Of a DNA stretch of 54,070 nt, positions 3,297 through 54,070 are shown piece after piece. Numbering within the stretch: position 1 is the stretch's first letter; every line of letters starts with the position of its first letter. The notes below the pieces were generated by a model. It saw only the letters and a list, made by a program, of their open reading frames with translations. It was not told where the DNA came from and ran no database searches. A program made the position numbers and the translations under genes. The stretch is from the IMG/VR virus record IMGVR_UViG_3300012964_000006, positions 1 to 54,070 of that record; one strand, 5' to 3'. This DNA comes from a virus.

Positions 3297-4175
3297 GTCC
3301 TCAATCCCGGTGAACAACGGCAGATCGTCGAGGTTGCCGTTATCTCGAAGGGGTTTCCACTCTTTACGCTGTTCCCGTTCGACCTCACCCACCCGCCGGC
3401 GGGCCAGGTCGCAATACTCCTGGCTGATTTCAAAACCGAGATACTGCCGGCCGGTGACTACGGCCATTTTGGCAACCGTGCCGCTGCCTATCATCGGGTC
3501 AAAAACTATGTCGCCGGGATTGCTCCAGCTTAAAATATGGTCGTGGGCCAGGGCCTCGGGGAAAATTGCCGGGTGGTTAAAAATATATCTTTCGCTGTCT
3601 GGTTGCGTCCTTCCGGCCAAATAAAACCAGATATTACCCCTTATCGTTTTGTCGCTCGTGACTATGTGGTTTCTAGTTTGTGACTTCCTGACCGCTGCCC
3701 CTTGTCCAAAGCTGGCAGCCCGGCCCTTCATTGATTGCTTTTGCCCGGCGTGTTTGGTTGGCTCCATTATCGGATTGAATACTGCGGGTTTGCCTTTACT
3801 GAGGATAAACATATACTCAAATTTTTGTTCATAGCGATTATGGGTTAAAGGTGGTTTATCCCATTGATAAATCATTGTATCGTGTAGGTTAAACCCCAGC
3901 CCCATAAAATACAGGACCTGCCGAAAGCTATTACCTGATTCGCTCCCGTCCTTAGTTTCATCCCCCACGACCCAAACCACCACGCCGCCCGGCTTTGTCA
4001 CCCGGTAAAGCTGCTGAGCTATCCGCCCAAAGGGAAACACAAAGCCATTGTACCGCCGTAGTCCATCATAGGGCGGACTGGTTACGGACAGATTAATACA
4101 GTTATCCGGCAGAGCCGCCATAAGTTGGCTGCACTCGCCACAATGGATACTGTTTAATGGATACGGCCCCAACAT
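3294..4175 (-). CDS. DNA methyltransferase, beta-class N4/N6 (SPPY type)
   Basis: Motif IV TSPPY near the N-terminus, motif I FDPMIGSGT near the C-terminus. Confidence 0.85.
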   Translation of the reverse strand: MLGPYPLNSIHCGECSQLMAALPDNCINLSVTSPPYDGLRRYNGFVFPFGRIAQQLYRVTKPGGVVVWVVGDETKDGSESGNSFRQVLYFMGLGFNLHDTMIYQWDKPPLTHNRYEQKFEYMFILSKGKPAVFNPIMEPTKHAGQKQSMKGRAASFGQGAAVRKSQTRNHIVTSDKTIRGNIWFYLAGRTQPDSERYIFNHPAIFPEALAHDHILSWSNPGDIVFDPMIGSGTVAKMAVVTGRQYLGFEISQEYCDLARRRVGEVEREQRKEWKPLRDNGNLDDLPLFTGIED

Positions 4176-49676: not shown

Positions 49677-50341
49677 ATAACCGCCTTACCTGGCCGGTAG
49701 GACCAAACCCCCGGCAGTAATACCAATTGATGCCCGGTCCCAGCATTGATATAATCCACGCCGGCTGTGATACTCTCCACCTGCTGAGTCGGGTGTTTTA
49801 CGAGGGTCGTACCATCCAGGCTATCGGCCCACGTCCAATGGTCAAGCATTGCCGTGCCGGATTGCGACCGGCCCACGTGGACCCACAACCCCCGCCGTTT
49901 TGCCTCTAGCGCCAATTGCTGGCCCTCGTACCCTCGCTTGTGGTCATCATCACCGCCGATGAATAGGCAATCAATCTCTGACCACGGAATGTCATCAACC
50001 GTCATCCCGTTTTGGGTGACGAAAGTCGTAGGATAGCCGTAAAACCGAGGAATATGCCCGTATCGCTCGAAGTCGGCTAACGTTCCCTCGCGGTCAAAAG
50101 GCCGGTCGGGTACGACTATTCCGAGGCAGGTTGCCCGATACGGTTGCAGCCGTTCCAGCCAGCGAATCCATTTTGGCTCTGACCATTGATTAGTAAACCG
50201 GCTGTTATCAAATATCCACCAACACCCAAGTTCTAGCGCCTCGAATTGCCCCCCCACCTGTTTAGCCACATTGAAAATACAGCCAAAGTGGACCGGGTCA
50301 TTAAGGAAATGTTGGGGCTTGGGTGACAGGTATATCGTCAT
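49673..50341 (-). CDS. Hypothetical protein (weak resemblance to TGT/DpdA-type TIM-barrel transglycosylases)
   Basis: WIFDNSRF.., VVPD, LFIGGDD.HK, ADSLDGT spacing recalls DpdA/TGT motifs; not verified. Confidence 0.5.
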   Translation of the reverse strand: MTIYLSPKPQHFLNDPVHFGCIFNVAKQVGGQFEALELGCWWIFDNSRFTNQWSEPKWIRWLERLQPYRATCLGIVVPDRPFDREGTLADFERYGHIPRFYGYPTTFVTQNGMTVDDIPWSEIDCLFIGGDDDHKRGYEGQQLALEAKRRGLWVHVGRSQSGTAMLDHWTWADSLDGTTLVKHPTQQVESITAGVDYINAGTGHQLVLLPGVWSYRPGKAVI

Positions 50342-50664
50342 AACCCCGCCCTCACCAGGTCGTCAACCGACTCGGCCACAATCGCAATCCCGCCGGCCGC
50401 TTCGACCGCTGCCAGGAAGGCCGCTTGAAGGTCACTCACCTGCCCACGTCGGCCGGGGCGTTTGCACTCTACCGCATAGAACGTTCCCCGGTTGGTGCAG
50501 CCGATAATATCAGAGCTGCCCGGTACATCCGTAAAGCGAAAGAATCGCCGCTTGCCCTGGTACTCATTCACCTGGGCGCCGTTGTTGATGCGAATGGCGA
50601 TGTGACCGCGTAGCCTTAAGTAGTCTAAACAGGATCGCTTGACATCGTTCTCTGATGCGCTCAT
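50338..50664 (-). CDS. VRR-NUC domain nuclease
   Basis: CLDYLRLRG..GSSDIIGC..FYAVECKRPG..Q..F pattern. Confidence 0.75.
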   Translation of the reverse strand: MSASENDVKRSCLDYLRLRGHIAIRINNGAQVNEYQGKRRFFRFTDVPGSSDIIGCTNRGTFYAVECKRPGRRGQVSDLQAAFLAAVEAAGGIAIVAESVDDLVRAGL

Positions 50665-52922
50665 TATGCCGCCTCTCCAAATAGGGAGTATTGCCCCTCG
50701 GTTGCCATCGTTTTTAGTGCGACCTCTGCCGTTTTGCCCTCTGCCCGGGGAAGGGCATTGACCGCCAGGTAGACCGGGTTAAGGTCCAACCCCACAAATC
50801 GCCGGCCCAGGTTGCGGGCGACCTCGCCGGCCGTACCGCTGCCACAAAAAGGATCAAGGGCGATTGCCGGGACGGTTGGGGCTGTTTTGTTTCCGGCGAC
50901 TCGGGTTGTCCACAGGTACGGCTTGATTTCATCGGCCGCCAGGACAAATACCGCCCGGTGCAATTCGGGAATATCTTTGTTCTCCGCCACTGCCGCCAGT
51001 TTGTCATACCGCTTCTGAATCAGGTCTTGCCGGCGGCGCTTGGTTGGGTTGGCGGTACGGTAGCAGGTACAGGATGGTTGCCAGCCGGTGGTAATGGGCT
51101 GCTTATATCCCGGCATTGTTCCACCAGGGCCGCCCCTCGCTCCGTGCTCCAAATCGTGTTGCCTGTCGGTACTTCGCCAATCGCCAACCCTTGCGGTTTC
51201 CACCACCCTCACCCACCCGGCCCCGCACTTCGGGCAGCACCCCCGCGCACTCGTACCAGCCAAAACGCACGGCTCCACGAGCTTTGTGGGGAAGGTGGCA
51301 AAGTGGGCGCCCGGGTACGCTTCGGTGGCAATGGTCCAAATTGTGCGGCGATTGCGATGCCCACTAAAGACTTTTATCCCCGGTGTATTGCTTTCGTTAC
51401 CAGGTCGCCCAGCTCCGTTAGTCTCTTTTTTGCCAACGTGAAACGCGCTGTTGTATCGGCCGGCGTATTGCGGATCCGCGCTTTCCCTTACCGCCTCTGC
51501 ATCATAAAAATACCGTTCCTGCTTCGTCATCAGAAACACGTACTCGTGCGCTTTCGTCGGCCGATCGTCAACCGATTCGGGCATTGGATTCGGTTTTGCC
51601 CAAATAATCGTTGATCGGCAAATCCAGCCATCTTCCATCAAGGCCCGCTTGACCAGATCGGGTATACCTAATTCCTGTTTCGCCCTGGTTGCGTTTGACA
51701 ATCGTTTGGCTTTGTCGTATAATTCAGCATAACGAACAAGACTACCGAATTGATTGGAGATAAACAAATGTCTTACGGAATTGACAGTAATCTTGATAGC
51801 CCCATCCATCAAAGAGAGCGCGAAATGCTCAGGGGTGGCTTTAGTTATGCGGAAATTGCGCAAGCCCTGGGGAGTAAACACAAGAGCATTGCTGAGCGTA
51901 ACAGGTTGGTCTATAAGATCGACGTCCGCCAGGCTTTTGCTGACAGAATCAGGCGCGACGGTGTCCCTTGCCGGCTGGAAGTCTCCGACAGCTTTGGTTA
52001 CTGGTTTAGTGGATTCTTCGACGGCGAGGGGCATATTGGAATTTATAGCAGGCAAAGGGCAGATAGGTACATCGAGCGAAGATTGTCCATTCAAATTATC
52101 ATCCGAGACGACGACGCTGATGTTATTCATTCCATCAGGGATAATCTGAAGGTCGGTATTGTTTATGACAATGGCGGACACGGAAGAACTAACCCTAACA
52201 CTACTTTCAGGGTTGAGCAGATTAACGACCTGGCAGAAATCATTGTCCCTTTGTTTGAAAAGTATCCGCTTCACACTAAGAAAGCGCGTGAATTCGCCAT
52301 CTGGAAGGACATTGTTGGGCTTCAATACACCGTCACTATGGGCGGATATAGTCAACGCGCATCGGCCTCCGATGAACATAACGCCATTTTTGATAATGCC
52401 CTCAAGTTGATTAGCGATATTCGCACCTACCGACGATGACGGCTTATCCCTGAAAGTCCGGTCATCATTGCCGGCCGCTTTCGTTGCCGCCGCGCTTCGG
52501 CCGTTTGGGGCGGTGGCATAGGAATCCCCAATGTTAAGCCAGAGCGTTGCCTCGGGCCGCAGCACTCGCCACACTTCACGAAAGATATTGACAATGTGCT
52601 GGATAAATAAGCCGGGTGTTGGTTCCAGGCCCAGGGAGCCGCGCCAGGCGTGGCAGTGGATACAGAATTGACCAGAATCAGCGGTTTGTCCGATAGCGGC
52701 AGCGGCGTTATGTTTGGCCCCGGTGTTAGTTTGCGGCACTTGATTGGGGTGATGAGCCAGTCCAAGTTGCCCCCACTCGTGCTGGCAATCTTCCCGCCCG
52801 TCCCAAATCATAGGCGTAATTCCGTAGTCCCTTAAGCCCCACTAATAAGGCGGACTAGTCACTACACAGTGTACTGACTCGTCCGCCAAAGGGATGCGAA
52901 AGCTATTAGCGTGAACAATCAT
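50664..52922 (-). CDS. DNA methyltransferase (beta-class N4/N6) carrying an in-frame TAG and a ~250-codon in-frame insertion
   Basis: ATG 52922 with AAGGAGG SD: MIVHANSFRIPLADESVHCVVTSPPY-TAG-WGLRDYG..GLEPTP..LNIGDSY..[insert]..IIWAKPNPMPESVDDRPTKAHEYVFLMTK..HFATFP..DPFCGSGT. Confidence 0.7.
51695..51723 (+). promoter_or_regulatory. Perfect consensus promoter TTGACA-17-TATAAT for the LAGLIDADG gene
   Basis: TTGACA 51695-51700, TATAAT 51718-51723, GGAG 51756-51759. Confidence 0.65.
51768..52439 (+). CDS. LAGLIDADG homing endonuclease (single-motif) with N-terminal HTH
   Basis: GYWFSGFFDGEGHIGI (LAGLIDADG motif); ATG 51768. Confidence 0.8.
   Translation: MSYGIDSNLDSPIHQREREMLRGGFSYAEIAQALGSKHKSIAERNRLVYKIDVRQAFADRIRRDGVPCRLEVSDSFGYWFSGFFDGEGHIGIYSRQRADRYIERRLSIQIIIRDDDADVIHSIRDNLKVGIVYDNGGHGRTNPNTTFRVEQINDLAEIIVPLFEKYPLHTKKAREFAIWKDIVGLQYTVTMGGYSQRASASDEHNAIFDNALKLISDIRTYRR
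52842..52844 (-). other. In-frame TAG codon inside the methyltransferase
   Basis: Minus strand ..TCC? no: ..AGT CCG CCT TAT TAG TGG GGC TTA AGG GAC TAC GGA = S P P Y * W G L R D Y G. Confidence 0.85.
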
Positions 52923-53496
52923 CCCGCCCTCCTTTCTGCTCAGATTCCTTGATAAAGTCTCTGTTGATATTCTTGGTACTGTGGACCCAGTTGTGGCAGT
53001 CCGGGCAAAGCAAAATGAGGTTGTCTACATCGGCCCTTAGTTCCTTCACCTGAAAAGATACAATGTGGTGAATGTGGAATCGGTCCCTATTTCTGGCTAT
53101 AGCCCCACACCGCCGACAAATACCCCTGTCGCGTCGCCACACGGACAAGGCGGCCTTTTTCCATTCCCTGGAAGCGTAAAAACCTTGTCTTTCGGCGGTT
53201 ATGCCACCCTTCCAGTTTGGTACTTCTGCCCCCCTGCGCCCGTACATTGGGTTCTTTTTTCCATTGGCCCCCCAATGCTTAACGGCCCTGGTTTCTGATA
53301 TAGTACGGGTTGGTATTTGGTGCTTTTGGAGAAAATAGAGGATATTGTTTTCGATGCAGCCAAAATCATCCGCGATGTCTTTGGCTGACCTTTGCTTTAT
53401 AACATATTCGTTGTAGAGCCATTCCCGATTCCAGTAAGGCTTTTCTGTTCGCCAGTGTTCGCCCTTAACGAATCTACCTGTGATTTTGTCCGGCAT
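52906..53496 (-). CDS. HNH homing endonuclease
   Basis: CRRCG..FHIHHIV..NLILLCPDCHNWVH; start at ATG 53496 (MPDKITG) downstream of its own promoter and leader; maximal ORF runs to 53700. Confidence 0.75.
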   Translation of the reverse strand: MPDKITGRFVKGEHWRTEKPYWNREWLYNEYVIKQRSAKDIADDFGCIENNILYFLQKHQIPTRTISETRAVKHWGANGKKNPMYGRRGAEVPNWKGGITAERQGFYASREWKKAALSVWRRDRGICRRCGAIARNRDRFHIHHIVSFQVKELRADVDNLILLCPDCHNWVHSTKNINRDFIKESEQKGGRDDCSR

Positions 53497-53655
53497 AGCA
53501 AAACGCCCCTTACCAAGTTTGCCATCGTTGCCTAGACGAATGGCGGGACGTGAATCCACCTGATAAGGGGCGCTTTGCCCACAATGAGTATTGTGTTTTT
53601 CGATGGCGTCTAAAAAAGCAAAACGCCCCGTGGTCCATTCGTCTAGGCACTTACC

Positions 53656-53684
53656 AGTATAACACAGTTCGGCCGGAATTGCAA
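53656..53684 (-). promoter_or_regulatory. Promoter TTGCAA-17-TGtTATACT for the HNH gene
   Basis: Minus strand: TTGCAA = 53679-53684, TATACT = 53656-53661; -10 and leader are homologous to the 3268-3296 promoter. Confidence 0.5.
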
Positions 53685-53696
53685 TACCCTGTACTA

Positions 53697-53834
53697 TCAT
53701 CTCCTAATCCCCCTCCACCCTCTCGCCCCGTTCAGCCTCCTGACCTCTTTTGAATACTGCCGGTAGCGGCAGATGCAATTTATCGCCACCCACAGGGCAG
53801 CGATTACAGCGATGGTATAGGCGGTGTCGCTCAT
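53697..53834 (-). CDS. Small membrane peptide (45 aa)
   Basis: Hand translation MSDTAYTIAVIAALWVAINCICRYRQYSKEVRRLNGARGWRGIRR; ATGA overlaps at both ends. Confidence 0.4.
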   Translation of the reverse strand: MSDTAYTIAVIAALWVAINCICRYRQYSKEVRRLNGARGWRGIRR

Positions 53835-54013
53835 TTTTGCGCCTCGCTCAATTCCCCGTCCAATATCGCCCTCACCACCTCGTCCAGCGTTCGCAACAAC
53901 ACGCCGTCCCTGGTGCGCCAGTGAGCCCGGCCGCTGGTCAGGCCGGCGTCAATCTCAACACAGAGGCGGTAAGCGCGGGCGTAGGTGTATAGGTTTACTG
54001 TCTCCGCCGCCAC
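53831..54013 (-). CDS. Hypothetical protein (60 aa, GTG start)
   Basis: ORF-track entry; partly inside the terminal repeat. Confidence 0.45.
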   Translation of the reverse strand: MAAETVNLYTYARAYRLCVEIDAGLTSGRAHWRTRDGVLLRTLDEVVRAILDGELSEAQK

Positions 54014-54070
54014 TGGCGGTACTGCCTCGCCTCGTAGGTTATTACCGTGGCCATTGTCAGGGCTACGATA
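53948..54070. repeat. Direct terminal repeat (copy of 1..123)
   Basis: Identical sequence. Confidence 0.95.

What the first reader, a model, noticed from the sequence alone, without database searches (positions are those of the whole stretch)
52842..52844. In-frame TAG between the SPPY catalytic motif and WGLRDYG of the large methyltransferase
Translating upstream of the ORF-track start (52811) in the same frame gives ATG 52922, with AAGGAGG 5 nt upstream. The reading is MIVHANSFRIPLADESVHCVVTSPPY, then TAG (52842-52844), then WGLRDYGITPMIWDG...

The catalytic motif IV and the rest of a 2.2-kb intact ORF are therefore separated by a single amber codon. TAG is used as a normal stop by other genes here (for example 1738, 3294 and 4178), so this is not global recoding.

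Options are programmed or leaky readthrough, dependence on a host suppressor or Pyl-type decoding, a very recent nonsense mutation, or an assembly error.

A 13-bp imperfect hairpin (52849-52861 with 52875-52887) ends 4 nt upstream of the TAG.
Basis: seen in the sequence. Interest (0 to 1): 0.75.

Follow-up and report, generated by a model that had tools for sequence, protein, structure and literature searches.

The report
Endonuclease-linked stop-codon insert in phage methyltransferase
The amber codon is an extra three bases placed in the catalytic motif of a phage DNA methyltransferase, found at the same spot in many unrelated phages and linked to homing endonuclease genes that target that spot, and the ribosome probably skips it, which would make it a miniature counterpart of the phage T4 gene 60 bypass.

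Summary
On the minus strand, ATG 52922 is followed by 26 codons (…SPPY), TAG 52844-52842, then WGLRDYG and 725 open codons.

It is not a nonsense substitution. All 12 aligned homologs read SPPY-[W/F/Y]GLRDYG with nothing between, so TAG is a 3-nt insertion.

A pattern with that codon left free (NNN) found 8 more contigs (GC 0.39-0.68), and all carry TAG. Point-nonsense, 1-nt and neighbouring-junction controls gave no stops. Related loci have TGAC after Tyr, or TGA after Trp.

Every 3-nt insert copies the preceding codon except its third base. Seven of 11 lineages have a strong hairpin ending next to that codon; 120 uninterrupted genes and endonuclease-adjacent genes without an insert do not.

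The flanking HNH gene belongs to a family whose members carry in-frame methyltransferase N-terminal remnants breaking at SPPYW(G)(L). A near-identical phage pair shows endonuclease, recoded N-terminus, hairpin and TAG arriving as one cassette.

Best reading: the insert disrupts the endonuclease target, and forward ribosome slippage (a "stop-hop") skips it. Translation is untested.

The 2.2-kb ORF is also inflated by an antisense LAGLIDADG gene.

The parts
52906..53700 (-). HNH homing-endonuclease gene (264 aa). It abuts and overlaps the methyltransferase start by 17 nt. Its first ~11 codons (MIVQGIAIPAE) look like a remnant of a methyltransferase N-terminus.
   Evidence: Pfam HNH E=9.5e-12. 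PHROG HNH families down to 1.6e-24. Homologs carry in-frame methyltransferase N-terminal remnants, eight of them breaking right after SPPYW(G)(L). Start sequence.
52928..52934 (-). Shine-Dalgarno AAGGAGG, 5 nt upstream of the methyltransferase ATG and inside the 3' end of the HNH ORF.
   Evidence: Sequence.
52845..52922 (-). Methyltransferase N-terminal segment, 26 codons MIVHANSFRIPLADESVHCVVTSPPY, ending with catalytic motif IV (SPPY).
   Evidence: Translation. Alignment with 12 homologs.
52849..52887 (-). RNA hairpin. Its 3' arm is made of the Ser-Pro-Pro codons and it ends 1 nt before the Tyr codon. Proposed stimulator of forward slippage.
   Evidence: The 48-nt upstream segment folds to -26.2 kcal/mol, z -6.27. 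Closed-hairpin energy -25.0 against a minimum of -21.9 among 120 uninterrupted genes. Comparable hairpins in L001, L002, L125, L127, L128, L152.
52845..52847 (-). Tyr codon UAU of SPPY, the proposed take-off codon.
   Evidence: Sequence. 8 of 9 TAG-bearing genes use TAT rather than TAC (P=0.03 given GC3).
52842..52844 (-). Inserted TAG: 3 nt absent from all uninterrupted homologs. It differs from the preceding Tyr codon only at the third base.
   Evidence: Controls.
50664..52841 (-). Remainder of the methyltransferase ORF (WGLRDYG... to the stop at 50666-50664), 725 open codons, with NPMPESV (51590-51570) and motif I DPFCGSGT (50855-50832) intact.
   Evidence: Pfam N6_N4_Mtase 107 bits against a cut-off of 26.7..
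51750..52439 (+). Antisense LAGLIDADG homing-endonuclease gene (229 aa), codon-aligned with the methyltransferase frame, which stays open across it. In the host frame it reads as a ~260-codon insert, roughly 52430-51680.
   Evidence: Pfam LAGLIDADG_1 E=5.5e-17. No TTA/CTA/TCA codons, P about 0.007-0.009. Intact conserved antisense ORFs in L144, L145, L146. GC and skew change.
50880..51062 (-). Second, ~60-codon insertion near the C-terminus of the methyltransferase (YRTANPTKRRRQ...NKTA), absent from most homologs. Unexplained.
   Evidence: Alignment columns 717-780. Coordinates.

Best explanation
The TAG is a 3-nt insert that belongs to a homing-endonuclease cassette. It is most likely skipped by the ribosome.

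Shown in silico:
1. The insert sits between the Tyr and Trp codons of the invariant SPPY|WGLRDYG motif, where no homolog has a residue.
2. The same junction carries a stop-bearing mini-insert in 11 diverged phage lineages. Nine have UAY-UAG-UGG, one has UAC-UGAC-UGG, and one has UGG-UGA-GCA.
3. The abutting HNH gene belongs to a family that inserts into these methyltransferase genes at this junction.
4. In one near-identical phage pair, the endonuclease gene, a recoded N-terminus, the hairpin, the TAG and flanking synonymous changes are present or absent together as one block.

Inferred:
- The endonuclease recognises the highly conserved DNA that encodes SPPYWGLRDYG in phages lacking it. The insert breaks that site, so the carrier genome is not cut.
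- A sense codon would be translated into the catalytic loop. A stop codon instead pauses the ribosome with an empty A site.
- Peptidyl-tRNA-Tyr then slips forward 3 nt from UAU onto UAG, keeping pairing at the first two bases. It is helped by refolding of the hairpin that ends 1 nt upstream.
- UGG is decoded next, which gives the canonical SPPYWGLRDYG enzyme in a fraction of ribosomes.

This would be a minimal (3-4 nt) analogue of the T4 mobA/gene 60 endonuclease-plus-bypass cassette.
For: Insertion, not substitution: 12 of 12 homologs have Y directly followed by W/F/Y.

Recurrence and specificity:
- The PPY-NNN-WGLRDYG pattern gave 3 viral and 5 metagenome contigs, all with TAG, at GC 0.39-0.68.
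- These genes do not form a clade.
- Controls in viral contigs: Tyr->stop 0, Trp->TAR 0, 1-nt insert 0, codon inserted at P^Y 0, codon inserted at W^G 9, all Gly.

Other variants at the junction: TGAC after Tyr in L152/L153, which readthrough cannot rescue, and TGA after Trp in L154/L155. All ten 3-nt inserts differ from the preceding codon only at the third base (null P about 0.009).

Hairpin:
- The closed hairpin abutting the Tyr codon reaches -20 to -32 kcal/mol in 6 of 9 TAG genes, against a control minimum of -21.9 (n=120).
- The GC-controlled Mann-Whitney test gives P=1.3e-4. Tool z-scores are -3.6 to -6.3.
- The 5' arm starts at three different distances while the 3' end is fixed.
- The hairpin is present with the TGAC insert (-27.9). 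It is absent from HNH-adjacent genes without an insert (L138, L151) and from the TAG-less sister L150.

Endonuclease link:
- An endonuclease gene lies upstream in 3 of 6 TAG loci, against about 1 of 96 uninterrupted loci (Fisher P=5e-4).
- HNH homologs are fused to methyltransferase remnants ending ...SPPYW(G)(L).
- Cassette mapping, L147 against L150: 99.7% identity up to codon 6; a 574-nt block replaces 36 nt; differences run through TAG and the G, L, R codons; then identity through codon 75.

Precedents:
- A 5' juxtaposed hairpin stimulates forward slippage at CUU-UGA in an E. coli 70S system when release is slow (PMC6321510).
- In T4 gene 60 the take-off codon is followed by UAG, and the HNH endonuclease MobA is blocked by the untranslated insert (10.1101/2022.08.31.505936 and PMC6551183).
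Against: - No translation data exist. Everything about decoding is inference.
- Four of 11 lineages (L003, L124, L126, L154) lack an unusual hairpin.
- L002, L003 and L128 show no endonuclease gene in the upstream stretch examined.
- The landing codon matches the tRNA at only 2 of 3 positions, unlike gene 60.
- No enriched structure lies downstream of the stop.
- In the mapped pair the invasion is recent, so the intact downstream ORF there does not prove selection after the insert arrived.
- The third-base rule would also fit near-cognate readthrough by the same tRNA, or codon duplication followed by mutation.
- The TAT bias is weak (P=0.03).
- The endonuclease-adjacency and hairpin contrasts rest on small numbers.
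- The insert is rare (3 viral contigs against more than 120 uninterrupted) and absent from 185,579 representative genomes.
Confidence: 0.45

Rival explanations
1. The insert is an endonuclease-linked scar that simply kills the gene. The TAG (or TGAC, or TGA) blocks self-cleavage, the methyltransferase is not made, and the selfish cassette spreads despite that cost. Intact downstream ORFs reflect recent invasion.
For: The mapped invasion is recent: flanks are 99.7-100% identical. Interrupted alleles are rare, scattered singletons. They are absent from representative genomes. L138, next to a related HNH gene, has a visibly degraded methyltransferase.
Against: - It does not explain why the free codon is a stop in every case and never a sense codon or a 1-nt insert.
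- It does not explain why the stop copies the first two bases of the preceding codon.
- It does not explain why a strong hairpin accompanies the insert but not the endonuclease gene alone.
- It does not explain why the cassette keeps its own SD, start codon and family-typical N-terminus in frame.
- The allele next to P0175 lies in a phage seen on 10 contigs, and its downstream frame is open for 507 codons.
Confidence: 0.25
2. Recoding adds one residue. The TAG is read through by a near-cognate tRNA (tRNA-Tyr, Gln or Trp) or a host suppressor, giving SPPY-X-WGLRDYG. The TGAC variant is decoded by a prfB-like +1 shift, giving Y-D-W. The enzyme tolerates one extra residue in the loop.
For: UAC-UGA-C in L152 has the same stop context as the RF2 frameshift site, which an upstream hairpin stimulates in vitro. 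A natural SPPYWGGLRDYG variant shows the loop can accept a residue two positions later. The third-base rule also fits decoding by the tRNA of the preceding codon.
Against: - No homolog has any residue between Y and W, and no sense codon was ever found there.
- UGA, the leakiest bacterial stop (general knowledge), is not used after Tyr in the 3-nt inserts.
- No readthrough-type 3' structure is enriched.
- The base after UAG is U, which is not a known leaky context (general knowledge).
Confidence: 0.2
3. The insert is an expression attenuator or terminator unrelated to endonucleases. The hairpin and the following U-rich UUAUUAGU, with the stop, throttle a toxic methyltransferase at the level of transcription or translation.
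For: In the L147/L150 pair all three changes next to the hairpin (A->U, C->U, +UAG) raise U content. The preference for TAT and CCT fits a U-tract.
Against: The terminator scan flags nothing. L001 and L002 have GUAUUAG and GUACUAG after the stem. The link to endonuclease genes and to their insertion site would be a coincidence. A terminator does not need an in-frame stop at one exact codon boundary.
Confidence: 0.05
4. Global or host-dependent TAG decoding (code reassignment, pyrrolysine, phage suppressor tRNA), a one-off nonsense mutation, or a sequencing or assembly artefact.
For: A single in-frame TAG viewed in isolation allows all of these. A GC-rich inverted repeat just upstream is a context known to provoke Illumina miscalls (general knowledge).
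Against: - No tRNA gene in the window or in the related loci.
- TAG ends 14 of 63 genes, and freeing TAG raises coding density about as much as freeing TGA or TAA.
- It is an insertion relative to all homologs.
- The same insert occurs in 9 diverged contigs and in independent assemblies.
- Three cases have no hairpin.
- Illumina artefacts are substitutions, not exact 3-nt insertions (general knowledge).
Confidence: 0.03

Closest known systems
Phage T4 mobA / gene 60 cassette (HNH homing endonuclease plus 50-nt translational bypass)
   Same: - An HNH endonuclease gene lies next to a conserved phage gene.
- The carrier allele has an untranslated insert in highly conserved coding DNA, next to a recoded homologous stretch.
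- A sense codon is followed directly by a stop (GGA-UAG there, UAU-UAG here), with a 5' stem-loop.
- Invasions are scattered and recent, the endonuclease is sometimes lost, and endonucleases of other families take its place (10.1101/2022.08.31.505936, PMC6551183).
   Different: - The insert is 3-4 nt, not 50.
- The landing codon would be the inserted stop itself (2 of 3 match) rather than an identical codon.
- No take-off stem-loop is evident in the A-site region.
- The host gene is a DNA methyltransferase, not topoisomerase.
- No sequence relationship was shown, and bypass is not demonstrated here.
Synthetic 'stop-hops' in E. coli (tRNA hopping over a stop codon)
   Same: Peptidyl-tRNA leaves a sense codon when a slow-to-decode stop occupies the A site, and re-pairs further along in the zero frame. 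The review PMC5009743 describes this for synthetic constructs.
   Different: Those constructs use matched take-off and landing codons on either side of the stop (9 nt for one amino acid). According to the same review, no natural occurrence is known.
prfB (RF2) +1 programmed frameshift and hairpin-stimulated forward slippage
   Same: A sense codon plus an in-frame stop is preceded at E-site distance by a stimulatory duplex. A stable 5' hairpin can stand in for the Shine-Dalgarno duplex in a 70S system, and only when release is slow (PMC6321510). L152's UAC-UGA-C has the same stop context.
   Different: In the window the downstream frame is the zero frame, so a +1 shift is unproductive and a +3 move is needed. 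There is no autoregulatory logic involving a release factor.
ShiLan-type 'hidden endonuclease' insertions in actinophage methylases (for the antisense LAGLIDADG gene)
   Same: An insertion in a phage DNA methylase with no stops in the host frame and no intron or intein features. An endonuclease is encoded in another reading frame, and the distribution among homologs is patchy (PMC11855218, PMC9957025).
   Different: There it is an HNH endonuclease in another frame of the same strand. Here it is a LAGLIDADG endonuclease on the opposite strand, codon-aligned. An opposite-strand arrangement is not mentioned in that paper.

Membership tests
Beta-class N6/N4 DNA methyltransferase (Pfam PF01555 N6_N4_Mtase) | Profile match above the curated cut-off | tested here: met
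   107 bits against a cut-off of 26.7, in three stretches. Nearest solved relatives are CcrM, TTHA0409, DpnA, M.MboIIA and M.RsrI.
Beta-class N6/N4 DNA methyltransferase (Pfam PF01555 N6_N4_Mtase) | Motif IV (D/S)PP(Y/F) near the N-terminus and motif I FxGxG near the C-terminus | tested here: met
   SPPY at codons 23-26 and DPFCGSGT at 50855-50832.
Beta-class N6/N4 DNA methyltransferase (Pfam PF01555 N6_N4_Mtase) | One continuous reading frame linking motif IV to the rest of the enzyme | tested here: not met
   TAG at 52844-52842 lies between SPPY and WGLRDYG.
T4 gene 60-type endonuclease-linked translational bypass | Untranslated insert inside conserved coding DNA, with both halves of the ORF intact | tested here: met
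   A 3-nt insert relative to 12 of 12 homologs; 26 and 725 open codons on either side.
T4 gene 60-type endonuclease-linked translational bypass | Take-off sense codon directly followed by a stop codon | tested here: met
   UAU-UAG in the window. UAY-UAG in 8 other contigs, UAC-UGA(C) in L152, UGG-UGA in L154.
T4 gene 60-type endonuclease-linked translational bypass | Landing codon identical to the take-off codon after a ~50-nt gap that contains a take-off stem-loop | tested here: not met
   The gap is 3 nt. The landing codon would be UAG (2 of 3 match). The 48 nt downstream of the stop show no excess structure.
T4 gene 60-type endonuclease-linked translational bypass | Stem-loop 5' of the take-off codon | tested here: met
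   Window hairpin 52887-52849, z -6.3. Strong in 7 of 11 lineages and absent from controls.
T4 gene 60-type endonuclease-linked translational bypass | Adjacent homing endonuclease whose own target is disrupted by the insert | tested here: inconclusive
   Adjacency is met. The insertion site of the HNH family maps to SPPYW(G)(L), and the cassette was mapped in L147/L150. Cleavage specificity and immunity cannot be tested in silico.
T4 gene 60-type endonuclease-linked translational bypass | Demonstrated bypass product and nascent-peptide signal | not testable with these tools
   Needs protein-level experiments.
Programmed stop-codon readthrough | The readthrough residue occupies a position that exists in homologs, with a leaky context or a 3' stimulatory structure | tested here: not met
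   No homolog has a residue there. No downstream structure is enriched. The TGAC variant cannot be rescued by readthrough.
Stop-codon reassignment, suppressor tRNA or pyrrolysine decoding | Many in-frame TAGs, TAG avoided as a terminator, and a suppressor tRNA or pylT gene | tested here: not met
   14 of 63 genes end in TAG, and freeing TAG raises coding density about as much as freeing TGA or TAA. No tRNA genes.
Ordinary pseudogene | Lesions of random type and position, with further decay | tested here: not met
   The same site and a stop-bearing insert recur in 11 lineages. Point-nonsense and 1-nt controls gave zero. 725 downstream codons are open and the motifs are intact.
ShiLan-type hidden-endonuclease insertion (antisense LAGLIDADG at 51750-52439) | Insertion open in the host frame, endonuclease in another frame, no intron or intein signature, patchy distribution | tested here: met
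   It differs in that the endonuclease is on the opposite strand and is of the LAGLIDADG type.

The most novel reading that the evidence does not exclude
This is the first natural in-frame 'stop-hop'. Ribosomes carrying peptidyl-tRNA-Tyr (or Trp) slide 3-4 nt over an inserted stop, driven by a refolding 5' hairpin, and so restore an invariant catalytic motif. The device has arisen repeatedly because it is the only way to put an endonuclease-blocking insertion into DNA whose protein product cannot accept an extra residue. It would be a second, far simpler and independently evolved class of endonuclease-linked translational bypass beside T4 gene 60.
Probability: 0.4. Interest if true: 0.9.

Novelty: new variant of a known kind. 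Interest (0 to 1): 0.82.

Why it matters
Translational bypass linked to a homing endonuclease has so far meant the T4 gene 60 family. Natural in-frame stop-hopping has been discussed but, according to the 2016 review PMC5009743, never found.

This case offers a compact test system of about 45 nt: hairpin, sense codon, near-cognate stop. It comes with three natural variants (TAG, TGAC, TGA) and matched uninterrupted alleles, and can go straight into reporter assays.

It also shows how selfish endonucleases can immunise their carriers inside sequence that tolerates no amino-acid change.

On the practical side, gene callers split or truncate these methyltransferases, so phage methylation capacity is under-annotated. 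The same gene also carries an opposite-strand version of the recently described 'hidden endonuclease' insertions.

Tried and rejected
- Suppressor tRNA or Pyl: ARAGORN found nothing in the window or in 8 related loci.
- Global recoding: TAG is a normal terminator (14 of 63 gene calls), and freeing TAG raises coding density about as much as freeing TGA or TAA.
- Intron or other known RNA: Rfam at E<=1 found nothing across 50000-54070.
- Intrinsic terminator: the scan flagged nothing.
- Generic decay: the Tyr->stop, Trp->stop, 1-nt insertion and P^Y insertion scans all gave zero.
- Wider motif after the TAG (F/Y instead of W, any residue at two positions): only the same three viral contigs.
- Isolate and MAG genomes: no hit with either pattern.
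- One shared mobile N-terminal module across all TAG genes: rejected. Upstream identity is 0.467 for TAG-TAG pairs against 0.463 for TAG against uninterrupted pairs.
- Quasi-palindrome templated insertion: by eye, the hairpin flanks are not complementary to the insert.
- A second copy of the window's methyltransferase 5' end: none within 3 mismatches.
- Literature search for the motif or for an amber codon in phage methylases: nothing relevant.
- Sample provenance: only Ga0172377 could be placed, in a municipal landfill.
- DNA of the other contigs of the window's phage could not be fetched because the sample file is too large.
- The cluster look-up added nothing about sample independence.
Full report
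**1. The observation**

On the minus strand the window reads AAGGAGG (52934-52928), a 5-nt spacer, ATG (52922-52920) and 26 codons MIVHANSFRIPLADESVHCVVTSPPY. TAG follows at 52844-52842, then TGG and WGLRDYGITPMIWDG..., open to the stop at 50666-50664. The fused protein is a beta-class N6/N4 DNA methyltransferase (Pfam PF01555, 107 bits), and its nearest solved relatives are CcrM, TTHA0409, DpnA, M.MboIIA and M.RsrI.

It spans 52887-52849 and ends 1 nt before the Tyr codon. The 48-nt upstream segment containing it folds to -26.2 kcal/mol, z = -6.3. The window has no tRNA gene. TAG terminates 14 of 63 crude gene calls, and freeing TAG raises coding density about as much as freeing TGA or TAA. 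The identical 715-aa gene call, which implies the stop, is on record for four contigs from JGI, ENA and Logan sources.

**2. The TAG is an insertion, and it recurs**

All 12 homologs aligned read SPPY directly followed by W/F/Y-GLRDY, so the TAG is an extra codon and not a substituted one.

I searched public collections for CCNCCNTAYNNNTGGGGNYTNMGNGAYTAYGG, leaving the middle codon free. This gave 3 viral and 5 metagenome contigs, and the codon is TAG in every one. These contigs span GC 0.39-0.68 and at least two methyltransferase subfamilies. They do not form a clade, because for nearly all of them the nearest relatives in the sample are uninterrupted genes.

Controls in the same viral collection:

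| Change tested | Matches |
|---|---|
| Tyr->stop | 0 |
| Trp->TAG/TAA | 0 |
| 1-nt insertion at Y^W | 0 |
| Codon inserted between P and Y | 0 |
| Codon inserted between W and G | 9, all Gly (an ordinary protein variant) |

A relaxed motif after the TAG added nothing. None of 185,579 representative genomes has the feature. Generic decay, a one-off mutation and assembly error are therefore excluded.

**3. A hairpin goes with the insert**

For each gene I computed the best closed hairpin ending 0-2 nt before the Tyr codon. Six of nine TAG-bearing genes reach -20.4 to -31.7 kcal/mol. The best of 120 uninterrupted genes is -21.9, with a median of -8.6. After regressing out GC, 6 of 9 against 3 of 120 have residuals of -8 or lower (Mann-Whitney P = 1.3e-4). 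Dinucleotide-shuffle z-scores are -3.6 to -6.3 for those six.

The 3' arm is always the Ser-Pro-Pro codons. The 5' arm begins at three different distances (spans of 36, 39 and 48 nt) and co-varies with the 3' arm. The 48 nt downstream show no difference. L003, L124 and L126 lack an unusual hairpin.

**4. The endonuclease connection**

The gene abutting the methyltransferase (52906-53700) is an HNH endonuclease. Among TAG-bearing loci with enough upstream context, 3 of 6 have an endonuclease gene upstream:
- the window (HNH);
- L124 (HNH, 38% identical to the window's);
- L127 (LAGLIDADG type, phrog_5046, E = 1e-17).

Only about 1 of 96 uninterrupted loci has one (Fisher P = 5e-4, or 0.006 under a conservative count).

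Homologs of the window's HNH often begin with an in-frame methyltransferase N-terminus. In eight of them the remnant runs through the motif and breaks after SPPYW, SPPYWG, SPPYWGL or SPPYWAL. This endonuclease family therefore inserts at the junction where the TAG sits. The window's own HNH ORF starts MIVQGIAIPAE, which resembles such a remnant.

**5. A mapped cassette**

L127's phage also appears in two further assemblies (L147 from ENA, L148 from Logan), both with the TAG. A TAG-less relative sits in the same 90% protein cluster (P0361; loci L149 and L150).

At the DNA level the two versions compare as follows:
- They are 99.7% identical up to codon 6 of the original methyltransferase ORF.
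- A 574-nt block then replaces 36 nt. It carries the LAGLIDADG gene and a new start codon overlapping its stop.
- It also carries a replacement N-terminus whose amino-acid changes create the hairpin's 5' arm.
- It continues through the TAG and a run of purely synonymous changes: CCT TAT TAG TGG GGC CTT CGA against CCA TAC --- TGG GGA TTG CGT.
- From the next codon the sequences are identical through codon 75.

In that lineage the TAG is therefore the 3'-proximal feature of an endonuclease-borne cassette.

**6. Further variants at the same junction**

- L152/L153 (HNH abutting) read SPPY, then TGAC, then WALRDYG, with 377 codons in the +1 frame and a -27.9 kcal/mol abutting hairpin. Readthrough cannot rescue a 4-nt insert.
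- L154/L155 (HNH abutting; its HNH gene is on 10 contigs) read SPPYW, then TGA, then ALRDYG, with 507 open codons and no unusual hairpin.
- All ten 3-nt inserts repeat the first two bases of the preceding sense codon (UAY->UAG, UGG->UGA).
- HNH-adjacent methyltransferases without an insert (L138 with WNLRVYN, L151 with FNLRDYG) have substituted motifs and no hairpin. The TAG-less sister L150 has none either. The hairpin therefore tracks the stop insert and not the endonuclease gene.

**7. Mechanism**

The following is shown: the anatomy, its recurrence, the endonuclease linkage, and the cassette structure in one lineage.

The following is inferred. The insert disrupts the endonuclease's target in the most conserved DNA of the gene. 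A stop codon is used because it is the only kind of insert that need not be translated. With UAG unread in the A site, peptidyl-tRNA-Tyr slips +3 from UAU onto UAG, helped by refolding of the abutting hairpin. UGG is then decoded, which restores SPPYWGLRDYG.

Precedents:
- A stable hairpin juxtaposed 5' of CUU-UGA stimulated forward slippage in an E. coli 70S system only when the release factor was absent (PMC6321510).
- In T4 gene 60 the take-off codon is followed by UAG, and the 50-nt insert blocks self-cleavage by the adjacent HNH endonuclease MobA. Invasions there are scattered and recent, and the endonuclease is often lost (10.1101/2022.08.31.505936, PMC6551183).
- The 2016 review PMC5009743 states that in-frame stop hopping was shown with synthetic constructs but that no natural occurrence is known.

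**8. Rivals**

- The insert simply kills the gene and spreads selfishly (0.25). This fails to explain why the insert always begins with a stop, why it follows the third-base rule, why it has a hairpin, and why the cassette keeps an in-frame N-terminus.
- Readthrough or a +1 shift adds one residue (0.2). Against it, no sense codon is ever found at that position.
- An attenuator or terminator unrelated to endonucleases (0.05).
- Code reassignment, a suppressor, or an artefact (0.03).

**9. The rest of the '2.2-kb ORF'**

About 260 of its codons (roughly 52430-51680) are the reverse complement of a LAGLIDADG homing-endonuclease gene on the plus strand (51750-52439; Pfam E = 5.5e-17). GC content and skew change there. 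The endonuclease gene contains none of the three codons that would be stops in the methyltransferase frame (P about 0.007-0.009).

Three homolog loci have intact, conserved antisense ORFs with the host frame open. Insert-bearing alleles share a recoded downstream flank. No intron is detected.

The closest described thing is the ShiLan 'hidden HNH' insertion of actinophage methylases (PMC11855218, PMC9957025). That element is on the same strand and encodes an HNH enzyme.

**10. Verdict**

The feature is a new variant of a known kind: an endonuclease-linked interruption of coding sequence with probable translational bypass. Interest is high because it is specific, recurrent and directly testable. 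Confidence in the full mechanism is moderate (0.45), because decoding has not been observed.

Noticed in passing
window 51750-52439 (+), inside the methyltransferase ORF; also L144, L145, L146: An intact LAGLIDADG homing-endonuclease gene lies antisense to, and codon-aligned with, the methyltransferase frame, which is kept open across it. There are no TTA/CTA/TCA codons (P about 0.007-0.009). The arrangement is conserved in three diverged homolog loci. It is an opposite-strand analogue of the ShiLan 'hidden endonuclease' insertions.
   Followed up: partly
L152:4408-4440 and L153 (JGI Ga0613821_002604, Ga0613812_003590): A 4-nt insert TGAC (in-frame TGA) lies between the Tyr and Trp codons of SPPY|WALRDYG. 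The rest of the gene is in the +1 frame. There is a -27.9 kcal/mol abutting hairpin, and an abutting HNH gene of the window's family.
   Followed up: yes
L154 about 3870-3890 and L155 about 3590-3610 (ENA ERZ28563591 scaffold_812; Logan SRR2090162): A 3-nt insert TGA lies between the Trp and Ala codons (SPPYW|ALRDYG), next to an HNH gene whose N-terminus is a methyltransferase remnant ending SPPYWAL. That HNH gene is on 10 contigs. There is no unusual hairpin.
   Followed up: yes
proteins P0123, P0127, P0130, P0133, P0154, P0166, P0169, P0172, P0175, P0177, P0184, P0194, P0228; window 53700-53668: Many homologs of the window's HNH endonuclease start with an in-frame fragment of a methyltransferase N-terminus. 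It looks as though the endonuclease borrows the host gene's start codon. The break points cluster just after the SPPYW motif.
   Followed up: partly
L138:1599-3065 and L151:4244-5368: Methyltransferases next to related HNH genes but without a stop insert have substitutions in the normally invariant motif (TSIPYWNLRVYN, SPPYFNLRDYG). L138 also has a degraded DIIW.KPNPMPESV block. This could be target-site immunity by substitution, or decay.
   Followed up: partly
L124 methyltransferase, residues about 106-440 after the TAG: This TAG-bearing methyltransferase also carries what looks like an intein after DVIW (CLSGGTW...HN; Pfam Intein_splicing E = 5e-6, below the gathering score). One gene therefore hosts two kinds of selfish insert.
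   Followed up: no
window 50880-51062 (-): A second ~60-codon insertion near the methyltransferase C-terminus (YRTANPTKRRRQDLIQKRYDKL...NKTA) is absent from most homologs and only partly shared with P0012 and P0021. Its nature is unknown.
   Followed up: no
L147 against L150, methyltransferase codons 106-225: Apart from the cassette, the middle of the gene is moderately diverged (4-9 nt differences per 15 codons) between stretches of identity. This suggests a separate within-gene recombination tract.
   Followed up: no
L144:62-2117: Upstream of an antisense-LAGLIDADG-bearing methyltransferase lie two further methyltransferase genes (N6_N4 and C-5 cytosine) and an HNH_3 gene, forming a dense cluster of methylases and endonucleases.
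   Followed up: no
window 50338-50667 (-): A VRR-NUC nuclease gene starts at an ATG that overlaps the methyltransferase stop (TAATG), which suggests translational coupling to the end of the methyltransferase ORF.
   Followed up: no
IMG/VR contigs L001-L003; metagenome contigs L124, L126: The TAG-bearing contigs cluster by dataset number (3300037071, 3300037119 and 3300037225; Ga0172377 and Ga0172381, the former a municipal landfill). This hints at particular environments or studies, and I did not resolve it.
   Followed up: partly
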